Assembly: GCA_951406725.2 (NCBI GenBank)
Contig: OX597823.1
Location: 48,794,001 to 48,858,000, forward strand
Length of the DNA: 64,000 nucleotides
From: Octopus vulgaris
Lineage: Eukaryota
Direction of reading: 5' to 3'
The position numbers and the translations under genes were made by a program. Positions 8,940 to 61,720 of the stretch are shown here, one piece after another (position 1 is the stretch's first letter; each line of letters begins with the position of its first letter). The notes under the pieces were generated by a model, which was not told where the DNA came from, made no database searches, and saw nothing but the letters and a program-made list of their open reading frames with translations.

Positions 8940-9414
8940 GTATGTGTGTGTGTTATGCAATAGAAGCAGTGTTAAATTTAAATAGCATCTATCTACCATA
9001 CTTTATGTACAGGGTGTTTTGGCTAAATTTGGTAGTTTACATAAAAGGAAAAGAAAAGACAATATTCCCTCCAAAAATAAAAGTATTCTTAAAAATCAAA
9101 AAATATCAACTAGATTATGGCTAGTTGGAAAGTGATTTTACAGATGAGGAGAAATACAATGGCTTTCACTGGACAATTTTGTTAACCAAGTTTGATACCC
9201 ACAAAGTGCTTATAAAATAATAGGTTGCTCAAAGTAGCAGCCTTCAGCTTTCACCATAACTTCAAGATGGCTCTAGAACCTGGTGCATGTGTTCCCCACT
9301 GTGTCCCAGTGAAGATCTTTGAACACCTCCTTGTTCTTGGCCACCAGCAGGGTGGTTGATGTCTTTCTTAACCATGCACCCCACACAGTAACCCATAGCA
9401 TTATATATATATAT

Positions 9415-9942
9415 AAATGGGGAAGTCTAGTTTATGGGACTACCTTAAGTTTCCTGTCCATAAATGGTTTAGCTTTATGGTGAATCACCAGAACCCAAAA
9501 ATCTGTTAGCCTATGACCTCTTAAAAATATGGTGGATAAATGCCTCACTACTCAAAGGTAACAATTGGGAATTACCTCCCTTTGCTATTGGCTACCAACT
9601 TCTAGCTGTACCACCATCTTGCAGGCTCCAAAAAGCTAGCAGAAACATCCTGAAATGTAAACATGGCCTAAAAATCTCCATTCTGGAGTTAAGTATGTTC
9701 CCTGATTCAAGTGAGTCTTTTAGGATTCTCGTGTGTTCAGCTATGGATAACTTGCAACGCTTTGTCCCGTTGATGTAGAAGCCTGGGTTCTTGAGCATTT
9801 TCCATGAGATTGAGTATGGAATACCGTTGTCTCTTAGTTGCCAAACGTGGCTGGCCAGTGATGTTATGTATCTCCTTTCTGGAACTCTGAAGGAGGAGGA
9901 GTTGTGGTTGGAGAGACATTGCTTGAAAGAGTTCCCGGGACA
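9415..9942 (-). mobile_element. 5'-truncated PLE: GIY-YIG C-terminus + 3' UTR with degenerate hammerhead
   Basis: Minus frame reads FKQCLSNHNSSSFRVPERRYITSLASHVWQLRDNGIPYSISWKMLKNPGFYINGTKRCKLSIAEHTRIL...ILNSRMEIFRPCLHFRMFLL, a PLE endonuclease end with a Naiad-like C-terminal Cys/His pattern. The UTR has ctggtga...GAAA-cttaagg-TA (~9432-9500), homologous to the 32/33-kb palindromes. Flanked by (TA)n. Confidence 0.8.
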
Positions 9943-9971
9943 TCAAATGTATATGTATGTATGTATGTATG

Positions 9972-27048: not shown

Positions 27049-27382
27049 AAGTATGGGAGTTTACTTCACAGGTGATCTAAATGATTAGGTATACTAGGTA
27101 AGTACTGTAACAGATTGCTAGTACTCCAAGGTTATAGCCGAGATGGTAGCTATAGAGCCATTGCAGATTTCTGATATAGTGGATATATAATTGTTAAAGA
27201 GGACAATAAACATTAAGGCAAGGCAAACATCTCAAGTTATATACAATTGGAAAAATTCAGTCTTACAGCTGTTTCTGGGATATCCCAGAAACAACTGTAA
27301 GACATTGAATTTTTTCCAATAATAATAATATATATGACTTGAGATATTTGCCTTGCTTTAACATTTGTTGTCCTCTTTAACA

Positions 27383-27413
<31 letters not shown>

Positions 27414-31680: not shown

Positions 31681-31901
31681 CTCCTTAGCATTCAGATTAT
31701 TCTGTCAAATGTAAGAAATATTTGTTCACATTCTTCTGAGTTCATCATACATTATCTCATACCTTCGAGATTTTGATGATGTAATTGCTTATTTTAAGAA
31801 TGACATTGTCAATACAGGCGTGAGAGGCTGGATTTGACCAGTTTGAACATAAAGACGGTAGAATATTTGGGCCAGATATGACCAGTTTAAATGCTAATGG
31901 G
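31681..31901. mobile_element. piggyBac-type MITE
   Basis: TTAA on both sides (31677-80, 31902-05). Imperfect TIRs ctccttagcatt / aatgctaatggg. Confidence 0.8.
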
Positions 31902-32026
31902 TTAAATCAGAACTTAGTTGTAATGAACCCACTAATCTACATGCATGTATTTGTTGTTGGTGATGTGGTTAATTAGTAAATATCAAATATTATATATATA
32001 TATATGTATATATATATTAAAATATG

Positions 32027-32322
32027 GATCGTTAGTAGACATTTCATAAATCTGGAGAAGAAGCACACTCTAAGATGTAGAGCAGTTAATGTTATAGTGG
32101 GGTAGGCTGATTTATGGGGTTACCCTGGACTTTTTCTCATAAGGGCTTTAGCCTTATAGCGTATCTTCAGACCCCAAACACTGCTGGCTTGAGATTTCTT
32201 TAAATATTTTAAAGAGGTCTCAGGCCAGCAGTGATTGAGGTCTGAAGATACGCCATAAGACTAAACCCCTTATGAGCAAGAATACCAAGGTAACCCCATA
32301 AACTGGCCTGCCCCACTATGAA
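32027..32322 (-). mobile_element. Non-autonomous PLE-derived palindrome with two inverted hammerhead motifs and a 15-bp TSD
   Basis: Inverted arms span 32094-32319 around ~32205, each containing ctgaaga...taacccc. A ~65-bp unpaired tail lies on the left. atatattaaaatatg occurs at 32012-32026 and 32323-32337. Confidence 0.85.
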
Positions 32323-32655
32323 ATATATTAAAATATGTATCTTTTTATATCCCCTGTTTTTTACTTATTTCAGTCATTAGACTGTGGTCATGCTGAAGTA
32401 CCACCTTGAAGAATTTTAGTTGAATGAACTGACCCTAATACTTATTTATCTTATTTTATGTCTGATAGTAGAAAACATATGTATGTATATATATATATAA
32501 ATATACTTCATAAATGAGGTCAAAGGAAAAAAATTCTAATGCCAAATATGCCGAAAAATTGGACATATTGTCCATTAACCATATAATTTTTTCACAATAG
32601 GCACGCTACTCGAAAAAAGGTCAACAGAAATTTCTAAAAAAATTCCATCATCACC

Positions 32656-32710
32656 ATATCGGACTGATTTCAGAGTTAGCTACTAAGAGCCCTCTCTTCA
32701 TCAGTGATAC
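32656..32710 (-). ncRNA. Type I minimal hammerhead ribozyme in a PLE-end fragment (~32500-32810)
   Basis: Minus: gtatca-CTGATGA-agag...ctct-GAAA-tcag-TC-cgatat. The segment is flanked by (TA)n. Confidence 0.75.
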
Positions 32711-32805
32711 ATGTGGCAAAAGAAATAAATGAAATACTTACTCATACCCATGGAAAAAGCAAATACTAAGTCATGGGCACAACTAAGTACCCCAAATACA
32801 TCCAA

Positions 32806-32837
<32 letters not shown>

Positions 32838-33437
32838 GGAGTGTAGCATAAGAGTGGCTGTGTGGTAAGTAGCTTGCTTATGAACCACATGGTTCCGGGT
32901 TCAGTTCCACTGCGTGGCACCTTGGGCAAGTGCCTTCTACTATAGCCTTGGGCCAACCAAAGCCTTGTGAGTAAATTTGGTTGATGGAAACTGAAAGAAG
33001 CCCGTTATATATATGTATTTATATGTGTGTGTGTGTGTGTGTGTATCTTTTATTTATGTCTTCTACTTTTGCCCGAGGTTACTCAAAGCCTTGTGAGTGG
33101 ATATGGTAGACAGCAACTGAGAAAAGCCCATTGTAAATATATATACATATATATGTATGTGAGTGTGTGTGTGTATGTATCATATATATTTCATAAATGC
33201 ATACATACGTATAAGCGTGCATGCTCATGTGTCCTTGTCTTCATACAATATTTTACCAGCTAATGCTATTAAGTTAGACATGGCCTGGGCCTATACTGGC
33301 CAAAACCTATCAAAGGTATCAAAGATACTTATTTTATCTGTCTGTTTTGCTGAACTACTAAGTTATGGGGATGTAAACACGCCGACACCAACTGTCAAGA
33401 GGTAGTGTAGGGCAAACATAAATGCACACATGCACAT

Positions 33438-33479
<42 letters not shown>

Positions 33480-33492
33480 ACACACACAGACA

Positions 33493-33726
33493 AATTGTTT
33501 GTAGAAATACATAAATCCAGAGGAGAAGCACACTCTAAGATGTAGAGCAGTTAATATTTTAGTGGGGTGTGCCAGTTTATGGGGTTACCCTGGGTTTCTC
33601 ACTCATAAGGGGTTTAGCCTTACAGTATATCTTCAGACCCCAAACACTGCTGAAGATATGCTATAAGGCTAAACCCCTTATGAGTGAGAAACCCAGGGTA
33701 ACCCCATAAACTGGCCTACCCTACTA
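33493..33726 (-). mobile_element. Second copy of the 32-kb palindromic hammerhead element, with a different turn-around point
   Basis: Same tail (agaagcacactctaagatgtagagcagttaat). Arms 33560-33636 and 33650-33726. Confidence 0.85.
33575..33645 (-). ncRNA. Intact-looking type I minimal hammerhead
   Basis: gtttggggt-CTGAAGA-tatactgtaagg ctaaacc ccttatgagtga-GAAA-cccaggg-TA-accccataaac. Confidence 0.8.
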
Positions 33727-35974
33727 TAATATATATATATATATATATATAAAATTTTTTATGTATTGGATTAAGTCTTTCTTTGTTTGATTTGCATAAT
33801 AGTGGTTTTGTCTCTAATTAATATTATATATATATATGACCGGCTTCTTTCAGTTTCCTATTTCTTTATTGCCCACAAGGGGCTAAATGTAGATGGGATA
33901 AACAAGAACAGACAAGGGGATTAAGTTGATTACATCGACCCCAGTTCATAATTGGTACTTAATTTATCAACCCTGAATGGATGAAAGGCAAAGTTGACCT
34001 CAGCAGAATTTGAACTCAGAATGTAAAGACAGACAAAATATCGCTAAGCATTTTGCCTGGTGTGGTAACGTTTCTGCCAGCTCACTGCCTTTAAGAGTCT
34101 GCCAGTTCGCCGCCTTTAAGTTTCAGTTTCTATCTACCAATCTATTCACAAGGCTTTGGTTGGCCCAAAACTATAGTAGAAGACACTTGCTCAAGGTACC
34201 ATGCAGTGGGACTGGACCTGGAACCACATGGTTGGGAAGCAAATTTCTTACCACACAGTTACACCAAATATATCCTAGAAGAAAAGAGAAAATGTTATAA
34301 CATTACCTTGGGATTCAAACACCATGTTTGCTGTAAATCCTATAGTTGTTTCTCATTCATTTTGATACGATATAGGATTCCCTGTTGCAACCACTTGAAG
34401 CAATCTGTAACTCTTTCATTAGTCTGCAGTTTGAGCTTGAAGTAATATCACAGCTGGTACAAGCCTGCAGTACTCTCAAGTGTCACTATTAAAGGAAATA
34501 ATTATTTCTCATCAACTTATTGTCATAGAATCTGGAAAATCTCTTGTAAAAATTTTCCCACTACATACAGAAATTCCCAGAAAGAAGTAATATATAATGA
34601 TTTATAATAAAGTTCCTGCTCAGATTTGATGCAATCAACTATCTTACATTATGTATTTATTTAATTTTTTCCTTTATATTACAACTGGTGTAGAGTGTTG
34701 GAGTTGTTGGTTACAAATTTCCAGTAACTGATTCACTGCTGCTTTAACAGTGACAACAGCAAAGGAATGTATATAACTGAATAGTTTGTTTGAAAAGAAC
34801 TTTCATTCTTCCTTTTACTGTTTGTTTTTTTTTCCTCTGGTAATTTATATCTTTTACTGATATACACTGGCAAAAGATAAGAGCACACATATACACAAAT
34901 ACTCATGCATACATACATACATACATACATACATACATACATACATACATACATACATTACATGAGCTTGTCTAGATATGTAACTATATGCATGAGAATA
35001 TATACATAAAAATAAAATACAAATCTGCATACATACATACATAGAGACAGACATACATTCATGAAAAATACCCAATTGATGTTGTTAAAATTCCAATGAA
35101 GGAGTCTTGGATCTAGGTTAAAAACTGACTCTTTATTGGCGAGAAATTTTTAAATAAAATTGGATAATGACATACATACAAACATATACATACATACATA
35201 CATACATACATACATACATACATACATAGACATTTATGTTTAGTTATACATACATAGACATTTTATGTTTAGTTATAATCCTTTCTACTATAGGTACAAG
35301 ACCTAAAATTTTGTGAGAGGGGACAAATTAATTACATCGACCCCACTGTTTCACTGGTACTTAATTTATCGATCCTGAAAGGATGAAAGGCAAAGTTGAC
35401 CTCAGAAACAATTTTAAATTAGTCTGATGGGTTACTCTACGCATTTGTAGAGTATAAAATTATCAATCTTATATAAGAAAATATAAATCCACTCACATGT
35501 ATATACATATATATATATATATGTATGTAAATATACATGTGTGTGTGTGTATGTGTGTGTGTGTGTGTGTGTTTGTGTGCGTATGTATGTATCATATAAA
35601 AAAAATGATAAACGTTGCCCTTTTCAAGCCTAGCCAGGTTCATTGGCCCGGTTTCCTGGTTTCTATGGCTAGGAAGAAGACTACCAGGCTTCATTCCCTG
35701 TTTTGTCAGGGATTTTATGGCTGGGTGCTCTTCCTTGCACCAATCACCTTACAGTGTGGACTCAGTGCTTCTTATGTGTATATGTATTTTTGTACATGTT
35801 TTAAAGCAGTGGATCTCAGCTTGCACAAAGCTATAAATAATAGCATGTAAATATTTGGTTGAGAAACCCTTTTGGATAGAAAAAGTTGATGGTTACTCTT
35901 GGGACTTAAACCTACATCTCCTGTAGATATAACAGTAATTCTACCATTAGCAACCAAAGCAATCCTTTGAATTT

Positions 35975-37723: not shown

Positions 37724-40495
37724 ATCATCATCATCATCATCATCATTTAGCGTCCGTTTTCCATGCTAGCATGGGTTGGACGGTTCAACTGGGGTCTGGG
37801 AGCCCGAAGGCTGCACCAGGCCAGTCAGATCTGGCAGTGTTTCTACAGCTGGATGCCCTTCCTAACGCCAACCACTCCGAGAGTGTAGTGGGTGATTTTA
37901 TGTGCCACCGACACAGGTGCCAGACGAGGCTGGCAGACGGCCACGCTCGGATGGTGTTTTTATGTGCCACCGACACAGGTGCCAGATGAGGCTGGCGGAC
38001 GGCCATGCTCGGATGGTGTTTTTATGTGCCACCGACACAGGTGCCAGACGAGGCTGGCAGACGGCCACGCTCGGATGGTGTTTTTATGTGCCACCGACAC
38101 AGGTGCCAGATGGGCTGGCGCCAAAGCACGGAGGCCAGTCTATGCGGTACTGGCTACGGCCACGTTCGGATGATTTTCTTGTGTGCCACCGGCACTGGTA
38201 CCACAAAGATACAAATTCCATTGATGTTCATCTATTTTGATTTGTTTTGATTTGATTTGATTTGATTTGATTTTCACTTGCCTCAACAGGTCTTCACAAG
38301 TGTCACAAGAAGGAAGGTATGCACAGGTGGACTGACTACGTCCCAGGTAGGGGCCACGGGTTATGGCCTGACTAGTCTTGCCGGGTCTTCGGATGGTGTT
38401 TTTATGTGCCACCGACACAGGTGCCAGATGAGGCTGGCGAACGGCCACGATCGGATGGTGTTTGTTGCGTGCCCACAGCACGGAGGCCAGTCGATGCGGT
38501 ACTGGCTACGGCCACGTTCGGATGGTTTTCTTGTGTGCCACCGGCACTGGTACCACAAGATACAAATTCCATTGATGTTCATCTATTTTGATTTGATTTG
38601 ATTTGATTTTCACTTGCCTCAACAGGTCTTCACAGGTCTTCACAAGTGTCACAAGAAGGAAGGAAGGTATGCACAGGTGGACTGACTACGTCCCAAGTAG
38701 GGGCCATGGGTTATGGCCTGACTAGTCTTGCCGGGTCTTCGGTTGGTGTTTTTATGTGCCACCGACACAGGTGCCAGATGAGGCTGGCGGACGGCCACGA
38801 TCGGATGGTGTTTGTTATGTGCCCACATCACAGAGGCCAGTCGATGCGGTACTGGCTACGGCCACGTTCAGATGGTTTTCTTGTGTGCCACCGGTACTGG
38901 TACCACAAAGATACAAATTCCATTGATGTTCATCTATTCTGATTTGGTTTGATTTGATTTGATTTGATTTTGATTTTTGATTTTCACTTGCCTCAACAGG
39001 TCTACACAAGTGTCACACACTTGCCTCAACAGGTCTTCACAAGTGTCATAAGTAGGAAGGTATGCACAGGTGGACTGACTACGTCGCCGGGTCTTCGGAT
39101 GGTGTTTTTATGTGCCACCGACACAGGTGCCAGATGAGGCTGGCGAACGGCCACGATCGGATGGTTTTCTTGTGTGCCACCGGTACTGGAACCACAAGGA
39201 TACAAATTCCATTGATGTTCATCTATTTTGATTTGGTTTGATTTTCACTTGCCTCAATAGGTCTTCACAAGTTTGGTTTGATTTTCACTTTCACTTGCCT
39301 CAACAGGTCTTCACAAGTTTGGTTTGATTTTCACTTGCCTCAACAAGTCTTCACAAGTGTCACACACTTGCCTCTGCCTCAACAGGTCTTCACAAAGTGT
39401 CACACACTTGCCTCTGCCTCAAAAGGTCTTCACAAGTGTCACACACTTGCCTCAACAGGTCTTCACAAGTGTCATAAGAGGGAAGGTATGCACAGGTGGA
39501 CTGACTACGTCGCCGGGTCTTCGGATGTTGTTTTTATGTGCCACCGATACAGGTGCCAGATGAGGCTGGCGAACGGCCACGATCAGATGGTGTTTGTTGT
39601 GCCCACAGCACGGAGGCCAGTCGATGCGGTACTGGCTACGGCCACGTTCGGATGCTTTTCTTGTGTGCCACCGGTACTGGAACCACAAAGATACAAATTC
39701 CATTGATGTTCATCTATTTTGATTTGGTTTGATTTGATTTTCACTTGCCTCAACAGGTCTTCACATGGGTCACACACTTGCCTCAACAGGTCTCCACAAG
39801 TGTCACACACTTGCCTCTGCCTCAACAGGTCTTCACAAGTGTCATAAGAGGGAAGGTATGCACAGGTGGACTGACTACGTCGCCGGGTCTTCGGATGGTG
39901 TCTTTATGTGCCACCGACACAGGTGCCAGATGAGGCTGGCGAACGGCCACGATCGGATGGTTTTCTTGTGTGCCACCGGTACTGGAACCACAAAGATACA
40001 AATTCCATTGATGTTCATCTATTTTGATTTGGTTTGATTTTCACTTGCCTCAACAGGTCTTCACAAGTTTGGTTTGATTTGATTTTGATTTTCACTTGCC
40101 TCAACAGGTCTTCACAAGTGTCACACGTGTCACACACTTGCCTCAACAGGTCTCCACAAGTGTCACACACTTGCCTCTGCCTCAACAGGTCTTCACAAAG
40201 TGTCACACACTTGCCTCTGCCTCAACAGGTCTTCACAAGTGTCACACACTTGCCTCAACAGGTCTTCACAAGTGTCATAAGAGGGAAGGTATGCACAGGT
40301 GGACTGACTACGTCGCCGGGTCTTCGGATGGTGTTTTTATGTGCCACCGACACAGGTGCCAGATGAGGCTGGCGAACGGCCACGATCAGATGGTGTTTGT
40401 TGTGCCCACAGCACGGAGGCCAGTCGATGCGGTACTGGCTACGGCCACGTTCGGATGCTTTTCTTGTGTGCCACCGGTACTGGAACCACAAAGAT
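37724..40495 (-). repeat. RTE 3' end expanded into a GC-rich higher-order tandem array
   Basis: RTE tail at 37724-37880, then ~4 x 59-bp units, then six composite units (~290-490 bp) marked by gatacaaattccattgatgttcatctatt and ggaaggtatgcacaggtggactgactacgtc. Confidence 0.85.
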
Positions 40496-40520
40496 GTATA
40501 TAAATATATATATATATATA

Positions 40521-43559: not shown

Positions 43560-45136
43560 CAATGATATGATGGGTGCCAGTCAGGCTACACAGGCATCAG
43601 CCATGACTATGATTTCACTCAGTTCAACAGGTCTTCACAAGCATGCCATATCGCCCAACGATTGAAGGGTGCTTTTAAATGGGCCAATTATGTGACACTG
43701 GCATTGGCCACAACTACATTCTCACTTGGCTTGCCAGGTCTTCTCAAACACAGCATATCTTAAAAGGTCTCGGTTGCTTGTCATTGCCTCTGTGAGGTCC
43801 AATGTTTGAAGGTCATGTTTCACCACCTCATCCCATATCTTCCCAAGTCTACCTCTTCCACAAGTTCCCTCCACTGTTAGGGTGTGACACTTCTTTACAC
43901 AGCTGTCCCTATCCATATGCATCACATGACCATACCAGCACAGTCGTCTCTCTTGCATACCACTTCAAATGCTTCTTATGTCCAACTTTTCTCTCAGGAC
44001 ACTTACACTCTGTTGTGCATGCACACTGACATTACACATCCAGTGGAGCATACTAGCTTCATTTCTTTCAAGCCTACATATGTCTTCAGGTGTCACAGCC
44101 CATATTTCACTGCTGTGTAGCATGGCTGTTTGCACACAGGCATCATACAATCTACCTTTCACTCTGAGTGAGAGGCCCTTTGTTACTAGCAGAAGTAGGA
44201 AGTCTCTACACTTTGCTCAGTCTATTCTTATATTCTAGCAGTTTCGCTCTCAGAGCATCCATCCTGCTACTGACTTGGTCACTGAGGTAATGGAAACTAT
44301 CAACTTCTAGTTTTTTACCCTGGCATGTGAGGGAACCTATTTTCTGTACATTTTCAGTGTTTATTGCACCTGTGCATCTTCCACATACAAAATCTATCTT
44401 CCCAGTTAACCTTCCTTTGATATTGCTGCACCTCTTATGTGTCCATAGCTTACACTGGGTACATCTTACAGAGTTTTTATCTATGCCTTTTCTACAGATC
44501 AAGCAAGGCCATCTACCTGAAAGGATTTGTGATTTGTCTGCCTTCCTACTTACTGAGACTTTGGTTTTTGCTAGGTTAACTCTAAGGCCCTTCGATTCTA
44601 GACCTTGCTTCCACACCTGAAACTTCTTCTCTAGTTCTGGTAGTGACTCAGCTATTAGAGCAAGGTCATCAGCATAGAGGAGCTCTCAAGGGCAGCCTGT
44701 CTTGAATTCCTCTGTTATTGCCTGGAGGACTATAATGAGCAAGAGGTGGCTGAGACTGATCCTTGGTGAACCCCTACCTCTACCTGGGATTACTCGCTTT
44801 ACTCGTTGCCTTACTCACCTTACTGAAAGCATCCCTGTACATGGCTTGTACAGCTCTCATCAACCACTCATCTACCCCTAGTTTCTGCATTGACTACCAG
44901 ATAAGGGATCAGGAGACCCTGTTAAAGGCTTTCTCATGTCAAAAAAAGCCAAGTACGAAGGTTTATCTTTGGCTAGGAATGTCTCCCGCAGCTGTCTTAC
45001 CAGAAATATAGTATCAGTGGTGTTTTTACCTGGCACAAACCCAAACTGCATCTCATCTAAACCAACTCTCCCCCTAATTTGTTGGGATATGACCCTCTCC
45101 ATGATTTTCATCACCTGATCCAGCAATTTGATACCT
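43560..45136 (-). mobile_element. 5'-truncated RTE-clade LINE (RT pseudogene) + proximal 3' UTR
   Basis: QFGFVPGKNTTDTIF, ELLYADDL (44661-44685), GLRVNLAKTK, a Cys/His finger, MLHSSEIW, WYGHVMHM...RGRLGKIW. Several frameshifts. Confidence 0.92.
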
Positions 45137-54095: not shown

Positions 54096-54776
54096 TATAT
54101 TTATATATATACACATACACATACACACAAATATATATATATATATATACATACAATATACATATATTTCAGGCACAAAGCCTGAAATTTTGGGTAAGGG
54201 GCCAGTTAATTAGATTGACCTCAATACACAACTGGTACTTAATTTATCGACTTCAAAAGGATGAAAGGTAAAGTCGACCCCAGTGGAATTAGAACTCAGA
54301 ACATAAAGACAGACAAAACACCTTGAAGCATTTTGCCCGGTGTGCTAACATTTCTGCCACCTCACTGCCTTCACAAATATATATATATAGTTGTAGCAAT
54401 GAAGTCACACCAAATAGTGATGTATTGTAATCATTTAATATGTTCATTTCAGGTTTGCATAGTATATAATAAGAAGTGCAGCCATTTTATAAACTTTCCT
54501 CAGTTAAAGCATTATGCAATGGATGCATTTCCTATTATATATTAGGGAAACCTGAAATGTATTTATCAAACGCTTTCAAAATATCACTATTTAGTTTAAC
54601 TCCATTTTTACAACTTATCGACTTGATGAGAGTACAAACGAGTCAGTCTTGTCTCCACTTATGTGGATACTCCAACAACAGTCTGAAGTAATCTGTTATA
54701 TTTAACTCAAGTTGAAAATTCTGGTACTGTGCATCACTTCTTGGTGTAATATGCAATATATACATACACACATACA

Positions 54777-55680: not shown

Positions 55681-56389
55681 ATATATGTGTGTGTGTGTCC
55701 AACCTATACCAGTATGGAAAGCAGACATTAAACAACGATGATGATGATGATATATATGTATATATATACACATACATACATATGTGTATGTATCATCATC
55801 ATCATCATTAGCATTGTTTAACGTCTGTTTTCCATACTGGCATAGGTTGGATGGTTTGACTGAGGACTGGCAAGCCAGGAAGCTGCTCCAGGCTCCCATA
55901 TGATCTGGCAAGGTTTCTACAGCTGGATGCCCTTCCTAACACCAACCACCCTGAGAGTGTAGTGGGTGCTTTTAATGTGCCACCAGCACATATGTATGTA
56001 TATATATCATGGCACTCTGTCAGTTACAATGATGAGGGTTCCAGTTGATCCAATCAATGGAACAGCCTGCTCGTGAAATTAACATGCAAGTGGCTGAGCA
56101 CACCACATATATGTGTACCCTTAACATAGTCCTCAGAGAGATTCAGTATGACACAGAGTGTGACAAGGCTGGCCCTTTGAAATACAGGTACAATAGAAAC
56201 AGGAAGAAAGAGTGAGAGAAAGTTGTGGTGAAAGAGTACAGCAGGGTTCGCCACCACCTCCTGCCGGAGCCTCATGGAGCTTTAGGTGTTTTCACTCAAT
56301 AAACACTCATGACACCCAGTCTGAAAATCGAAACCGTGATCCTACAACCACAAGTCTGTTGCCCTAACCACTGGGCCTTTGCACCTCCA

Positions 56390-56944: not shown

Positions 56945-58329
56945 GAGAGAGAGAAAGAGAGAAAGAATTTGTATGTGTGGTTATATAAATACATTATCCT
57001 CACTCCAATTTTATTTTTTTCTTTCCTTTTCCCTTTTTCACCTCGGAAACTGTTTGAAGTGGAAAATGGAAAATTTATGGTTGTCGTATTACCTGAACTA
57101 ATGCCCAGAATGTACTAATCAGATAAGATTTTAAATATGTATTTTAACACTATTTAAACATACTGTTTTTGCAGGTACATAAAGCAAATGTGAAATTAAA
57201 TATAAAAGTGAAAAACCATTTCCCAGTTAGCACATCATTCTGCTAAAAAAAAAAATTTAATGTAAAACACATATTTACCATAAAGTCCTAATTTGTTCAT
57301 AAAGTAAAAAGAAATCATCAACATTGTTATCATCATCCTTTAATATCTGTTTTCCATGCTGGCATGGGTTGGATGGTTTGACCAAACCTGGTAAGCTGGA
57401 GAGCTGCACTAGGTTCTAGACTGATTTGGCTTTGTTTTGATAGCTGGATGCCCTTCCTAATGCCAACCACTTTATGGTGTGTGCTGGGTGTTTTTAATAT
57501 GACACCAGCACAAGCACTTCTTTATGGTATCAGCATAAGTGCTTTTTACATGATACCAGAACAGGATTCCTGCAGGCCAATGCTTTTCATCAGGGAGAGC
57601 AGCCTTATCATTTCTTACCATGGAGAATGGGTCTTGAGTACAGCAAGGTGCCATATATTTCAGTCCTTTGTCATCTCTGATTAATTCAGTCTCCTGAGGT
57701 CATCCTTTAATACTTTGCCCTGGGTCTCCCTCTTCCAAATATAACAAAATAAAATTATATATAAGACATTGTCTCCAGACTCTTCCTTTGTGTGACACAA
57801 TGCTGTTAAGATGAAACTTGCAAAGTTTTGTCCTTATTTTTTTCAATATTTTTCTTTGACAAGAAACCAAATGGCAAATGAAGAGAGGGGGAAGAGAAAT
57901 ATTTTTAAAATACATGTTTTCCTTTTGTTGTATCAGTGACATCTTTATTGTTTTTTTCCTTACTTGTTTCTAAGTTACTGGACTGGGAGCATGAAGGGGC
58001 ATCACCTTGAAGGGCTTTAGTTGAATGAACTGACTCTGGTAAACAGTTTTTTAAAGTCTGATCATTATTCTGTCTCTAATGCTAAATTGATAAATCACAG
58101 TGACATAATCAAACCAACACAAGTTGTCAAAAGGCAGTGGAAGACAAACACAAAGACAAACCCGCAGATACATATACATGCACACATACACATTATACAC
58201 ATATATATATATATATATATATATTTAAAAAAGGAGATGTCGAACACGAGTGGTGATATATAAAAAAGGAAATGAAGAAAATGCTGACAAATAATTGAAG
58301 TAATTTAAGTAATTTAATTAGGTGAAAGT

Positions 58330-58376
58330 TCTTTTTACCGGTTGCGCATTTGTTATGCTTATCAAAATATAAAAGA
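58330..58376 (-). ncRNA. Non-canonical hammerhead-like motif (left arm)
   Basis: TTGATAA-gcat aacaa atgc-GCAA-ccgg-TA-aaaaga. Confidence 0.6.
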
Positions 58377-59087
58377 GAGATTAGAGTCTGTCTCTTATAT
58401 GTGAAAAAAAGAGGCTCCAGAGTTGTTTGGGATTTGCTTGGTTTCGCGCCTAAAATTTTGATTGGTCATTATGAAGGGGTCACGTGAATGTTTGAATGGA
58501 AGTTGGTGTTGGGGTAAGAAAAAAGGCTCCAGAGAAGTTAAAATTTGGCTAGTGTCCCGCCTAAAATTTCTTATTGGCCATAATAAAGAGGTCACGTGAA
58601 TGTTTAGAATTTTCGAAAATAGTGTTGTTGAAAATTCTTATTGTTCAGGCTGGTCAGTAGACGTCATGTGGATATTTTAAATAGCTTTTTTAGCGCGTAG
58701 TTAGGGAGTGTATTTTCCGCTTGACTGGATAAGTAAGTTCGTTTAGAACAGGGAGAGCTGTATGTATGTATGTGTGTGCGCGCGCGCGCGCGCGTGTGTT
58801 TATATGTATGTTGGGGCGCGCGCGCGTGTATATATGTGTGTGTGTGTGGGTAAAATTTTCAATATTTATAGTTCTGCTGGCCTTGTGCCTGTATCGGGAA
58901 GCAACGTATTTGTGTGAAGTCAATATTTACAGCCATTTCCAAAAAATAGTGTTGGATGTTTTGCACCCGTATTCAATTATGTGTATGTGTGGAACCATAT
59001 ATTTGTGTGTGTCATGGTGTTAATATCTGGGTAAAGGTGTGTGTAGGGTGTGTGTGCAGGTGTAAGTGTGTTTGTTGTGGGTTCGTG

Positions 59088-60372
59088 TTAGGGGCATGTG
59101 TTTAGAAGTGGTCTGTATTTATTAATAAGGTTGGATTCCATGGTTATTCGCTGGGTATGAGTGGCATTGTCTTTAAATTTGTAGAGGGGAAAGATTCTAA
59201 AATTGGGATGGAGTTGTGCGGCACAGGTATCAATATGTGCACTAAATGCTATTTTTCTATATTCCTGTATTTTTATTTGGGATCTGTGGACAGTCATGCG
59301 TTGGCGGAGGCTATTTTTTGTTTGGCCTATGTAGTGTTCATTACAGCCCGAGCAAGTTAAGACATATACTAGGTTTTCTGATGCGCATGTGAAGTTGTGT
59401 TTTACTGTGAAACGTTGTCCTTGTTTAAAAAGGAATTCCGGACCTTCTATTAGGTTGATGCATATACCACAGTTGGGTCTATTGCATTTGTTTACTGTGG
59501 GTTTAGTTGTTGTGGTTGGCAGTACTTTGGCATTTGTTAAGATGGTTTTCAATGATTTGGGTTGCCTTTTGCTCTTTATGATTTCGTGTGTTAGGAGGAT
59601 TTGGTTCATTCTATGGTCCTTTTGTAATACAGGAATGTTCTGGAGGATGGTGTCAAAAGCTTCATTGTTGAGGGGGTTGTGTGTAGAGATGTATGGTAGA
59701 GTATGGGGTTTCGATGTAACAGGTTTAGGGCGTCTAAGTTCCTGCGTGCTGAGTTTTAGGGCGCGTTGGATCCCATTGTCAATTAGTGACGTGGGGTAAT
59801 CCCTGCTTGTTAATGTGCCCTTGAGTTCTTGTAGACGTAAGAGACGGGTGTTTTTATTGGAGACTATAGTGCAAATTCTCTTGGCTAAGTTGTAGGGAAT
59901 GTTAATTTTAACGTGTCTAGGGTGGCATGAATTGAAAGGGAGGTATTGCTTGGAGTCTGTGGTCTTGTAGTATATGTCTGTTTCTATTTTTTTGTTGTGA
60001 ATTTTAATGAGGATGTCGAGGAAGGGAATTTGTTGAGGGCTGTATTCCATTGTGAAAATAATGTTTGTGTTGAGCCCATTTATAAGAGTGTGAAATTCGT
60101 TAAGCTTCTCGACGGTTTCGGGCCAAAGGATGAAGCAGTCATCAAGATATCTCTTCCAGTTCTTCTCGATGTGTGTGTGGAGAGAGGTGCCAAATTGGTT
60201 AAGAACGTTATTATAGAGGGTGATTTCCAGGTATCCCATGACTAAGTTGGCGTAAGTGGGAGCTGTTTTCGTTCCCATTGCCGTCCCTGATTTCTGTCTG
60301 TAGAATTTGTTGTTGAAGGTGAAGAAATTATTCTCTAAGATGAATTTGAGTCCTTCTAAAATAAATTCCTTT
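59088..60372 (-). CDS. PLE polyprotein, 5'-truncated: RT core C-half + thumb + Cys linker + GIY-YIG endonuclease
   Basis: YRQKSGTAMGTKTAPTYANLVMG, WKRYLDDCF, IPFLDI, YLPFNSCHP, KCNRPNCGIC, LVYVLTCSGCNEHYIGQT, RMTVH, ESNLINKYRPLLN. The frame is uninterrupted. The ORF-track N-terminus (60373-60434) is junction-derived. Confidence 0.93.
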
Positions 60373-60853
60373 AAGGCAACCCAAATCATTGAAAACCATC
60401 CTAACAAATGCCAAAGTACTGCCAACCACAACAACTAAACCCACAGTAAACAAATGCAATAGACCCAACTGTGGTATATGCATCAACCTAATAGAAGGTC
60501 CGGAATTCCTTTTTAAACAAGGACAACGTTTCACAGTAAAACACAACTTCACATGCGCATCAGAAAACCTAGTATATGTCTTAACTTGCTCGGGCTGTAA
60601 TGAACACTACATAGGCCAAACAAAAAATAGCCTCCGCCAACGCATGACTGTCCACAGATCCCAAATAAAAATACAGGAATATAGAAAAATAGCATTTAGT
60701 GCACATATTGATACCTGTGCCGCACAACTCCATCCCAATTTTAGAATCTTTCCCCTCTACAAATTTAAAGACAATGCCACTCATACCCAGCGAATAACCA
60801 TGGAATCCAACCTTATTAATAAATACAGACCACTTCTAAACACATGCCCCTAA
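60373..60853 (+). CDS. Duplicated GIY-YIG endonuclease domain in the inverted arm (no native start)
   Basis: Identical translation to the C-terminus of the minus-strand ORF. Confidence 0.8.
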
Positions 60854-61269
60854 CACGAACCCACAACAAACACACTTACACCTGCACACACCCTACACAC
60901 ACCTTTACCCAGATATTAACACCATGACACACACAAATATATGGTTCCACACATACACATAATTGAATACGGGTGCAAAACATCCAACACTATTTTTTGG
61001 AAATGGCTGTAAATATTGACTTCACACAAATACGTTGCTTCCCGATACAGGCACAAGGCCAGCAGAACTATAAATATTGAAAATTTTACCCACACACACA
61101 CACATATATACACGCGCGCGCGCCCCAACATACATATAAACACACGCGCGCGCGCGCGCGCGCACACACATACATACATACAGCTCTCCCTGTTCTAAAC
61201 GAACTTACTTATCCAGTCAAGCGGAAAATACACTCCCTAACTACGCGCTAAAAAGCTATTTAAAATATC

Positions 61270-61550
61270 CACATGACGTCTACTGACCAGCCTGAACAAT
61301 AAGAATTTTCAACAACACTATTTTCGAAAATTCTAAACATTCACGTGACCTCTTTATTATGGCCAATAAGAAATTTTAGGCGGGACACTAGCCAAATTTT
61401 AACTTCTCTGGAGCCTTTTTTCTTACCCCAACACCAACTTCCATTCAAACATTCACGTGACCCCTTCATAATGACCAATCAAAATTTTAGGCGCGAAACC
61501 AAGCAAATCCCAAACAACTCTGGAGCCTCTTTTTTTCACATATAAGAGAC
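61270..61550 (+). promoter_or_regulatory. Putative pLTR promoter (mirrored at ~58390-58670 on the minus strand)
   Basis: CRE-like tgacgtc. Two modules 112 bp apart, each with tcacgtgac, ccaat and ttttaggcg(g/c)ga. A TATA-like catataag lies ~30 nt upstream of the hammerhead-like motif. Confidence 0.55.
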
Positions 61551-61563
61551 AGACTCTAATCTC

Positions 61564-61610
61564 TCTTTTATATTTTGATAAGCATAACAAATGCGCAACC
61601 GGTAAAAAGA
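61564..61610 (+). ncRNA. Non-canonical hammerhead-like motif (right arm)
   Basis: TTGATAA (61575-81), stem II gcat/atgc, GCAA (61595-98), palindromic accggt, TA. Confidence 0.6.
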
Positions 61611-61670
61611 ACTTTCACCTAATTAAATTACTTAAATTACTTCAATTATTTGTCAGCATTTTCTTCATTT

Positions 61671-61720
<50 letters not shown>

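What the first reader, a model, noticed from the sequence alone, without database searches (positions are those of the whole stretch)
32027..33726. Miniature fold-back retroelements with back-to-back hammerhead ribozymes
Seen: two ~230-300-bp non-coding insertions share a one-sided ~65-bp tail plus a palindrome whose arms each carry a type I hammerhead (CUGAAGA, stem II, GAAA, CCCAGGG, UA). The 32-kb copy has a 15-bp direct flanking repeat, so tail + palindrome inserted as one unit. The copies turn around at different points, one ~35 nt upstream of the core and one right at CUGAAGA, so the palindrome was probably made anew at each insertion. Known: PLEs carry minimal HHRs with palindromic stem III and can have inverted pLTRs with a tail. 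Inference: these are minimal PLE insertions in which cDNA self-primes by folding back, giving MITE-like dual-strand ribozyme cassettes that repeat annotators would likely mislabel as DNA transposons.
Basis: partly seen in the sequence, partly recalled or inferred. Interest (0 to 1): 0.82.

Follow-up and report, generated by a model that had tools for sequence, protein, structure and literature searches.

The report
Head-to-head stubs of Penelope retrotransposon
The two hairpin-shaped inserts are real and are short, truncated tail ends of a Penelope-like jumping gene in the "inverted copy plus tail" layout already described for this class; only one of their four ribozyme motifs is intact, and it is predicted to be buried in the hairpin, so they are likely inert leftovers rather than two-strand ribozyme cassettes.

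Summary
Confirmed: two inserts (32027-32322, 33493-33732), each a palindrome plus a one-sided 62-nt tail. Copy 1 has a 15-bp flanking direct repeat and the two copies turn at different points. A third, 72%-identical arm at 9405-9530 lies 62 nt behind a GIY-YIG-type endonuclease C-terminus whose long relatives are Neptune-type Penelope ORFs, so the arms are Penelope-like (PLE) 3' ends. Overstated: only 1 of 4 arms has an intact hammerhead, and it is predicted to be buried in the hairpin (about -137 versus -14 kcal/mol). In contigs of four related genomes the family is abundant, majority letters restore the hammerhead, and copy 1's axis is not the family's end, although two paralogues share it. 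Inverted pLTR + tail + TSD, self-priming as its explanation, and opposite-strand hammerhead pairs are all in print (Arkhipova 2013; Cervera 2014; Craig 2021). This scan reported the same pattern before in two other genomes. One open point: the spacer does not always belong to the tail-bearing arm, which fits two separately primed cDNAs better than fold-back; the evidence is thin. New family member of a known kind.

The parts
32012..32026 (+). left copy of 15-bp direct repeat (likely target-site duplication of copy 1; 19 bp with one mismatch)
32027..32088 (-). one-sided 62-nt tail of copy 1 (3' extension of the PLE end)
   Evidence: 53 of 62 columns identical to copy 2 tail
32089..32204 (-). 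copy 1 left (tail-bearing) arm
32116..32175 (-). decayed hammerhead: CUGAAGA and stem I present, GAAA box broken
32204..32322 (+). copy 1 right (tail-less) arm; family sequence aligns from 32204, so the 3-nt spacer 32205-32207 most simply belongs to this arm
   Evidence: (table 8)
32237..32297 (+). decayed hammerhead: GAAA box, stem I and stem III each carry a change; family majority letters at 32238, 32283, 32284, 32288 are the intact ones
   Evidence: table 3
32323..32337 (+). right copy of 15-bp direct repeat
33493..33553 (-). one-sided tail of copy 2, next to a (CA)n run
33554..33652 (-). copy 2 left (tail-bearing, longer) arm including the 13-nt spacer 33637-33649 and the shared CTG at 33650-33652
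33581..33641 (-). the only intact type I hammerhead: 5-bp stem I, CUGAAGA, bulged 10-bp stem II, GAAA, 7-nt palindromic stem III, predicted cut after GUA between 33586 and 33585; no G10.1-C11.1 pair
33650..33732 (+). copy 2 right (tail-less) arm, starts at CUGAAGA, lacks the 5' strand of stem I, ends in a (TA)n run
9405..9530 (-). 72%-identical single arm of a related subfamily, decayed hammerhead, tail-less end in (TA)n
   Evidence: (E 2e-13 within the window)
9592..9942 (-). ORF remnant: C-terminal half of a GIY-YIG-type endonuclease of a Neptune-type PLE, 62 nt upstream of the homologous arm

Best explanation
Both inserts are short, 5'-truncated 3' ends of a Neptune-type Penelope-like retrotransposon joined head to head, likely formed during insertion and likely inert since. 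Shown: arm and tail anatomy, the flanking repeat of copy 1, homology of the arm to the 3' region of an endonuclease-coding PLE remnant, an abundant family whose sequence runs on past copy 1's axis, and 1 of 4 hammerheads intact. Inferred mechanism: the element's RT/GIY-YIG protein, supplied in trans, nicked both strands of an AT-rich target. One strand primed cDNA at the distal start site (arm with tail) and the other at the proximal start site (arm without tail). Both cDNAs stopped after 80-180 nt, still in the 3' UTR, and were joined through 1-3 nt of microhomology; the staggered nicks gave the 15-bp duplication. The hammerhead is a passenger of the PLE end. Odds: PLE origin about 0.95; palindrome made at insertion about 0.8; within that, two primed cDNAs about 55:45 over single-strand fold-back.
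For: Homologous arm at 9405-9530 (72%) lies behind ORF 9592-9942. That ORF hits 1690 library proteins at E<=0.001 (best 71%, named Octopus bimaculoides), and long hits are 720-950-aa ORFs with RT-like motifs, a Cys-rich linker and a GIY-YIG end. The ESM Atlas nearest cluster is GIY-YIG, score 0.96. In 4 of 16 related metagenome loci a strict scan finds a type I hammerhead with the same GAAA-(7-nt palindrome)-UA stem III, 122 nt behind the ORF end in 3 of them versus 144 nt here; 3 of 16 carry head-to-head inverted pieces. In one search, 7 of the 10 listed pieces that begin at 32203-32207 go on for 48-200 letters unlike copy 1's left arm; a further turn appears inside stem III (joint 32128 to 32285, one contig each in X1 and X4); majority letters restore the core in all four runs (82-99% of depth). 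An RT+GIY-YIG element at 58222-61684 has the same layout with a 33-nt tail. For two primers: the tail-less arms end at one fixed place (c1R, c2R, 9.4-kb copy; 6 listed pieces end at 32319-32328 without counting orthologues); the spacer is on the tail arm in copy 2 and the 58-62 kb element but most simply on the tail-less arm in copy 1; a PLE protein cuts and extends both strands and starts at two sites that bound the tail (PMC11167929).
Against: Only 32 of about 56,600 contig pieces and 15 of 116 joints were shown, so turn points could not be tabulated. Three listed pieces cross copy 1's axis colinearly, two of them clearly paralogous (16-22% other letters), so that axis recurs. Copy 2's junction equals a CTG-to-CTG deletion from a copy-1-type palindrome. 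The polarity call for copy 1 rests on one A in an A-run of a copy with 12-15% divergence. Copy 2's arms share four CpG-to-TpG changes, which suits one template. No empty site was seen; copy 2 has no TSD. No full-length element of this exact family was found, Pfam gave no RT or GIY-YIG hit for the 8 relatives scanned, and the tail (62 nt) is longer than the 30-40 nt in print.
Confidence: 0.8

Rival explanations
1. First reader's junction step, a variant inside the best explanation: one tail-primed cDNA stops, folds back on itself through microhomology and copies itself to make the second arm.
For: Copy 2: 3-nt CTG microhomology, 13-nt loop, spacer on the tail-bearing arm, and arms closer to each other (72 of 78) than to copy 1 arms (63-68 of 78), sharing four CpG-to-TpG changes. 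The 58-62 kb element has the same polarity and 99.4% arms. Self-priming was proposed for such junctions in PMC3846280.
Against: It does not by itself explain why the second arm stops at one fixed site short of the tail. Copy 1, and perhaps 54389-54615, have the spacer on the arm without tail. PMC8557442 says the tail is found at either end.
Confidence: 0.35
2. A non-autonomous palindromic PLE derivative with a preferred axis is copied as a unit, and copies such as copy 2 arose by later asymmetric deletion of the hairpin centre.
For: X4 record 14 and X8 record 19 cross copy 1's axis colinearly as paralogues. Copy 2's junction matches a deletion between CTG at 32184 and CTG at 32242. Both copies share the same tail end.
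Against: 7 of 10 listed pieces starting at the axis continue with unlike sequence. A single-arm homologue runs straight into the ORF at 9.5 kb. An AT-rich, nearly self-complementary stretch at the axis could be a turn hot spot. A 180-300-nt hairpin RNA is a poor template (inference).
Confidence: 0.13
3. A MITE or other DNA transposon with long terminal inverted repeats.
For: Short, non-coding, palindromic, abundant.
Against: One-sided tail inside the duplication, 15-bp duplication in one copy and none in the other, variable axis, homology to the 3' region of an endonuclease-coding PLE remnant.
Confidence: 0.02
4. Functional two-strand ribozyme cassette that cuts transcripts from either direction.
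For: One arm keeps every core base and stem I; its stem III can form a -11.6 kcal/mol homodimer.
Against: 3 of 4 arms are defective. The hammerhead fold costs over 120 kcal/mol against the fold-back hairpin, and has probability 0.008 even in the isolated 61-nt motif. Opposite-strand motifs cannot pair as a dimer in one RNA. No G10.1-C11.1 pair. Metazoan PLE hammerheads cleave weakly or need protein (PMC4209133, PMC11167929).
Confidence: 0.04

Closest known systems
Inverted-pLTR + tail insertions of endonuclease-positive Penelope-like elements (Arkhipova et al. 2013, PMC3846280; Craig et al. 2021, PMC8557442)
   Same: Head-to-head inverted 5'-truncated copy, short overlap or palindrome at the junction, tail on one end only, variable or absent TSD, microsatellite/AT-rich targets, self-priming already offered as explanation.
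   Different: Here both arms are truncated inside the 3' UTR, so no ORF is left between them; the tail is 62 nt rather than 30-40; the TSD is 15 bp versus 8-10 bp in the rotifer examples.
PLE type I hammerheads with palindromic stem III (Cervera and de la Pena 2014, PMC4209133)
   Same: Long stem II, 5-bp stem I, palindromic stem III suited to dimers; that paper already reports pairs of minimal hammerheads 100-700 bp apart on opposite strands in Schistosoma.
   Different: No G10.1-C11.1 pair in any of the five arms in this window; stem III has a 7-nt insert, so it is not the strictly minimal form.
Neptune-type PLE ORFs (P0086, P0098, P0168; loci L002, L005, L007, L008)
   Same: Endonuclease C-terminus 34-38% identical to the 9.6-9.9 kb ORF; hammerhead about 120-145 nt behind the ORF; same GAAA-(7-nt palindrome)-UA layout.
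   Different: No DNA-level similarity to the arms (best E 0.11); their stem II opens with G-C. The Neptune label rests on the Cys-rich linker; Nematis was not excluded by a tree.
Poseidon element of Anolis (Frangieh et al. 2024, PMC11167929)
   Same: Tail equals the stretch between two reverse-transcription start sites; both strands are cut and extended; AT-rich targets; hammerhead dispensable for insertion in vitro.
   Different: Different PLE clade; the main text does not address inverted copies.
Non-LTR retrozymes (Li et al. 2026, bioRxiv 10.64898/2026.07.22.740005)
   Same: Short non-coding PLE-derived units with type I hammerheads.
   Different: Defined as direct tandem repeats with an intact hammerhead in each unit; these inserts are inverted pairs with 1 of 4 intact.
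L1 twin priming (recalled, not from a call)
   Same: Second target strand primes a second cDNA; inversion joined by microhomology.
   Different: In L1 the two cDNAs copy non-overlapping parts of one RNA; here both arms copy the same 3' stretch.

Membership tests
Endonuclease-positive Penelope-like element (Neptune type) | End sequence is the 3' region of an RT + C-terminal GIY-YIG ORF | tested here: met
   72% homologue lies 62 nt behind an endonuclease C-terminus whose long relatives are RT-EN ORFs. Met through a related subfamily; the exact family's ORF was not found and RT motifs were read by eye (Pfam silent).
Endonuclease-positive Penelope-like element (Neptune type) | Type I hammerhead with palindromic stem III in the pLTR | tested here: met
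   Intact in copy 2 left arm; majority letters intact in four runs.
Endonuclease-positive Penelope-like element (Neptune type) | Conserved G10.1-C11.1 pair of PLE hammerheads | tested here: not met
   Absent in all five arms in the window; family-wide state unknown because 220 rows table 3 were not shown.
Endonuclease-positive Penelope-like element (Neptune type) | 5' truncation with inverted copy joined head to head | tested here: met
Endonuclease-positive Penelope-like element (Neptune type) | One-sided 3' tail (30-40 nt in print) | tested here: met
   Present on one side in both copies, but 62 nt long.
Endonuclease-positive Penelope-like element (Neptune type) | Variable TSD, AT-rich or microsatellite target | tested here: inconclusive
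   15-bp repeat in copy 1, none in copy 2, both beside microsatellites; no empty site seen.
Neptune clade specifically | Phylogenetic placement and Cys-rich linker between RT and EN | tested here: inconclusive
   Linker seen in relatives; no tree with reference elements; the window remnant does not reach the linker.
MITE | Fixed ends, symmetric terminal inverted repeats, fixed short TSD | tested here: not met
   One-sided tail, unequal TSD, variable axis.
Non-LTR retrozyme | Direct tandem units each with an intact type I hammerhead | tested here: not met
   Inverted pairs, 1 of 4 intact.
Active hammerhead ribozyme | Self-cleavage at GUA | not testable with these tools
   Folding only.

The most novel reading that the evidence does not exclude
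The head-to-head 'inverted copy plus one-sided tail' of Penelope-like elements is the product of twin priming: both nicked target strands prime separate cDNAs at the two start sites that bound the tail, and the truncated ends are joined by microhomology. This would settle why PLE palindromes are head to head with a sense template. Minimal stubs like these (at least four short ones, from three families, plus one long one in this 64-kb window) would let it be tested by counting spacer polarity in one genome. My searches found no paper stating this, but most subscription journals are not covered.
Probability: 0.4. Interest if true: 0.5.

Novelty: new member of a known kind. Interest (0 to 1): 0.25.

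Why it matters
As elements they are ordinary PLE debris. Their value is practical and mechanistic. They are dense in this genome, look like MITEs or miRNA hairpins to automated tools (most of the top Rfam E-value matches are miRNA models, all below gathering score), and they record both cDNA ends and the junction in 250 bp. A genome-wide count could therefore decide between fold-back and two-primer models for PLE inversion, which the papers read describe as unresolved. That annotators mislabel them was not tested.

Tried and rejected
No whole genome is held for this window, so no per-copy table of axis, tail and TSD could be made. Exact-pattern scans for the arm found 0 loci in viral contigs and 0 in metagenome contigs. 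A word-index search for long homologues of the 9.6-kb ORF found none among 42 candidates; the full HMMER search then found them. Direct BLASTP of that ORF with the 59-kb ORF was not significant (E 0.05): different PLE clades. Pfam was silent on the remnant and on 8 relatives; P0086 has no PDB hit. Rfam found no hammerhead; its miRNA matches reflect only the long hairpin and were rejected. Isolated arms do not fold better than shuffles (z from -1.3 to +0.5, 6 stretches). No RNA holder was listed, which is no evidence on expression. No empty site appeared among the 15 joints shown, and rows near 31980-32025 were skipped as repeats. 'Opposite strands' joints such as 32125-32282 and 32086-32309 were set aside as effects of a palindromic reference. 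The depth drop left of 32059 was not read as a shorter tail, because copy 1 has private changes at 32053-32057 that would clip alignments. No ORF start was found in the tail; in relatives the ORF starts about 150 nt behind the hammerhead. A sequence look-up in earlier findings found nothing. Lunse et al. (PMC5785218) is not held.

Full report
OBSERVATION. The region holds two related inserts. Copy 1 is a palindrome with arms 32094-32204 and 32208-32319 (84% complementary); copy 2 has arms 33554-33636 and 33650-33732 (93%) around a 13-nt spacer. Both carry on the left a tail that matches at 53 of 62 columns and stops matching at 32027/33493. Copy 1 is bounded by an exact 15-bp direct repeat (32012-32026, 32323-32337) found nowhere else in the window; controls gave such a repeat in 30 of 3000 and 2 of 260 pairs. 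Copy 2 lies between a (CA)n and a (TA)n run with no recognisable duplication.

HAMMERHEADS. A strict type I descriptor finds the left arm of copy 2 (minus strand, 33581-33641) and one unrelated site at 1879; 100 shuffled windows gave 3 hits. The right arm of copy 2 begins at CUGAAGA and so has lost the 5' strand of stem I. Both arms of copy 1 have a broken GAAA box. So 1 of 4 arms is intact. It has a 5-bp stem I, a bulged 10-bp stem II, a 7-nt palindromic stem III (homodimer -11.6 kcal/mol) and a GUA site, but no G10.1-C11.1 pair. Inside the palindrome the hammerhead fold scores -13.8 kcal/mol against -136.8 for the hairpin. Rfam gives no hammerhead match.

ORIGIN. A third arm, 72% identical, lies at 9405-9530. 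It starts 62 nt behind the stop of ORF 9592-9942 on the same strand. That ORF has 1690 relatives at E<=0.001; the best (71%) is a protein named from Octopus bimaculoides, so the host is likely an octopus. Long relatives (720-950 aa) show RT-like motifs read by eye, a Cys-rich linker and a GIY-YIG end; one aligns to the window's Pfam-confirmed RT+GIY-YIG ORF at 59 kb with E 3e-9. Pfam itself was silent on 8 relatives. The ESM Atlas names the nearest cluster GIY-YIG (0.96). The Cys-rich linker marks Neptune and Nematis elements (PMC8557442, PMC3846280); I built no tree. Of 16 related metagenome loci, 4 have a type I hammerhead with the same GAAA-(7-nt palindrome)-UA layout, in 3 of them 122 nt behind the ORF, and 3 have head-to-head inverted pieces. 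They share no DNA similarity with the arms.

FAMILY-WIDE VIEW. No assembly is held. I laid contigs of four runs from four organisms on 31800-32560 at 80% likeness. Summed depth over the insert is about two to three orders above a unique flank bin, which is not a copy number; 54-95 distinct contigs per run carry one variant letter at 32091, so the family has at least dozens of copies in each. Majority letters at 32238, 32283, 32284 and 32288 (82-99% of depth) are those of the intact hammerhead, so copy 1 decayed in place. Of 32 pieces shown (of about 56,600), 10 begin at 32203-32207, and 7 of these run on for 48-200 letters unlike copy 1's left arm: the axis is not the family's end. One joint (32128 to 32285, X1 and X4) marks a turn inside the stem III palindrome. 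Against a purely random axis, 3 pieces cross copy 1's axis colinearly, two of them with 16-22% other letters and so paralogous. No empty site was among the 15 of 116 joints shown.

SAME LAYOUT ELSEWHERE IN THE WINDOW. An RT+GIY-YIG element at 58222-61684 is a 3.5-kb head-to-head repeat with 99.4% arms and a 33-nt tail on the longer arm. Palindromes at 27183-27391 and 54389-54615 carry hammerhead parts of two other families. The layout is thus a generic outcome of PLE insertion here.

MECHANISM. Shown: junction microhomology of CTG in copy 2 and of 1 nt (or 4 nt, if one A was lost later) in copy 1; a fixed tail-less end in an AT-rich stretch that resembles the target. Inferred: three routes give the same junction. 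(a) Fold-back of one tail-primed cDNA predicts that the spacer always belongs to the tail arm. (b) Two cDNAs primed from the two nicked strands at two start sites allow either polarity and explain the fixed tail-less end. (c) Later deletion from a longer palindrome: copy 2's junction is exactly a CTG-to-CTG deletion of copy 1's centre. The spacer is on the tail arm in copy 2 and the 58-62 kb element, most simply on the tail-less arm in copy 1, on the (TA)n-ending arm at 54.5 kb (tail unproven), and absent at 27.3 kb. Copy 2's arms share four CpG-to-TpG changes, which suits one template, one subfamily or later conversion. In vitro, a PLE protein cuts and extends both strands and starts at two sites that bound the tail (PMC11167929). 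I favour (b) over (a) by about 55:45 and give unit copying with later deletion 0.13.

PRIOR WORK. PMC3846280 (read parts 1-4 of 5) describes inverted pLTR, overlap at the junction, optional tail and TSD, and interprets junction palindromes as self-priming. PMC4209133 (parts 1-2 of 4) defines PLE hammerheads, reports opposite-strand pairs 100-700 bp apart, and finds low activity. PMC8557442 (passages) calls the inverted 5'-truncated copy and a tail at either end typical. PMC11167929 (parts 1-2 of 4) explains the tail and finds the hammerhead dispensable for insertion. The retrozyme preprint (part 1 of 5 and passages) treats direct tandems. PMC8969392 and PMC6765202 were seen as passages. Figures and supplements of these papers were not seen and may show ORF-less inverted stubs or insertion models. 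L1 twin priming is recalled. Ten searches found no description of this family or of a two-primer model for PLE inversion; subscription journals, Repbase and Dfam are not covered. Two earlier reports of this scan reached the same verdict on other genomes; I saw them after forming my reading.

VERDICT. Real, PLE-derived, known architecture, ribozyme claim overstated. New member of a known kind; interest 0.25.

Noticed in passing
window 58222-61684: Young RT+GIY-YIG Penelope-like insertion as a 3.5-kb head-to-head repeat in (TA)n; arms 99.4% identical, 33-nt tail on the longer arm, two 96-bp direct repeats in the 3' region, no canonical hammerhead found.
   Followed up: partly
window 27183-27391 and 1703-1884: Perfect-centre palindrome holding only the 3' half of a hammerhead; the full hammerhead of a 69%-similar single-arm copy lies at 1879 (minus).
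   Followed up: partly
window 54389-54615: Older palindrome (76%) with a hammerhead-like core at 54503 (minus); the spacer belongs to the arm that ends in (TA)n; whether the other arm's extension is a tail is unproven.
   Followed up: partly
window 9405-9945: Single-arm, tail-less, 5'-truncated Neptune-type insertion between two microsatellites.
   Followed up: yes
window 32060-32085 (table 2): The inner tail has higher summed depth than both arms together, 1.5-fold in X1 and about 4-fold in X4 and X9; possibly many very short insertions or a shared 5' UTR of related families.
   Followed up: no
X4 record 16 (32243-32383): Contig identical to the right junction of copy 1 begins matching at CUGAAGA, the same point where copy 2's right arm starts, with 426 unplaced letters before it.
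   Followed up: no
L002, L005, L007, L008: Just behind the tail-less end point these distant relatives share a 5-nt motif (GCTCT) with the tail here; L002 ends at that point. Could be chance.
   Followed up: no
window 55698-55851: Inverted pair of the ends of an abundant repeat around a microsatellite; not hammerhead-related.
   Followed up: no
window 44206-44685: LINE-type RT C-terminus followed by a PHD-like finger (Pfam RVT_1 and PHD).
   Followed up: no
window 37800-40500: GC-rich composite tandem repeat region.
   Followed up: no
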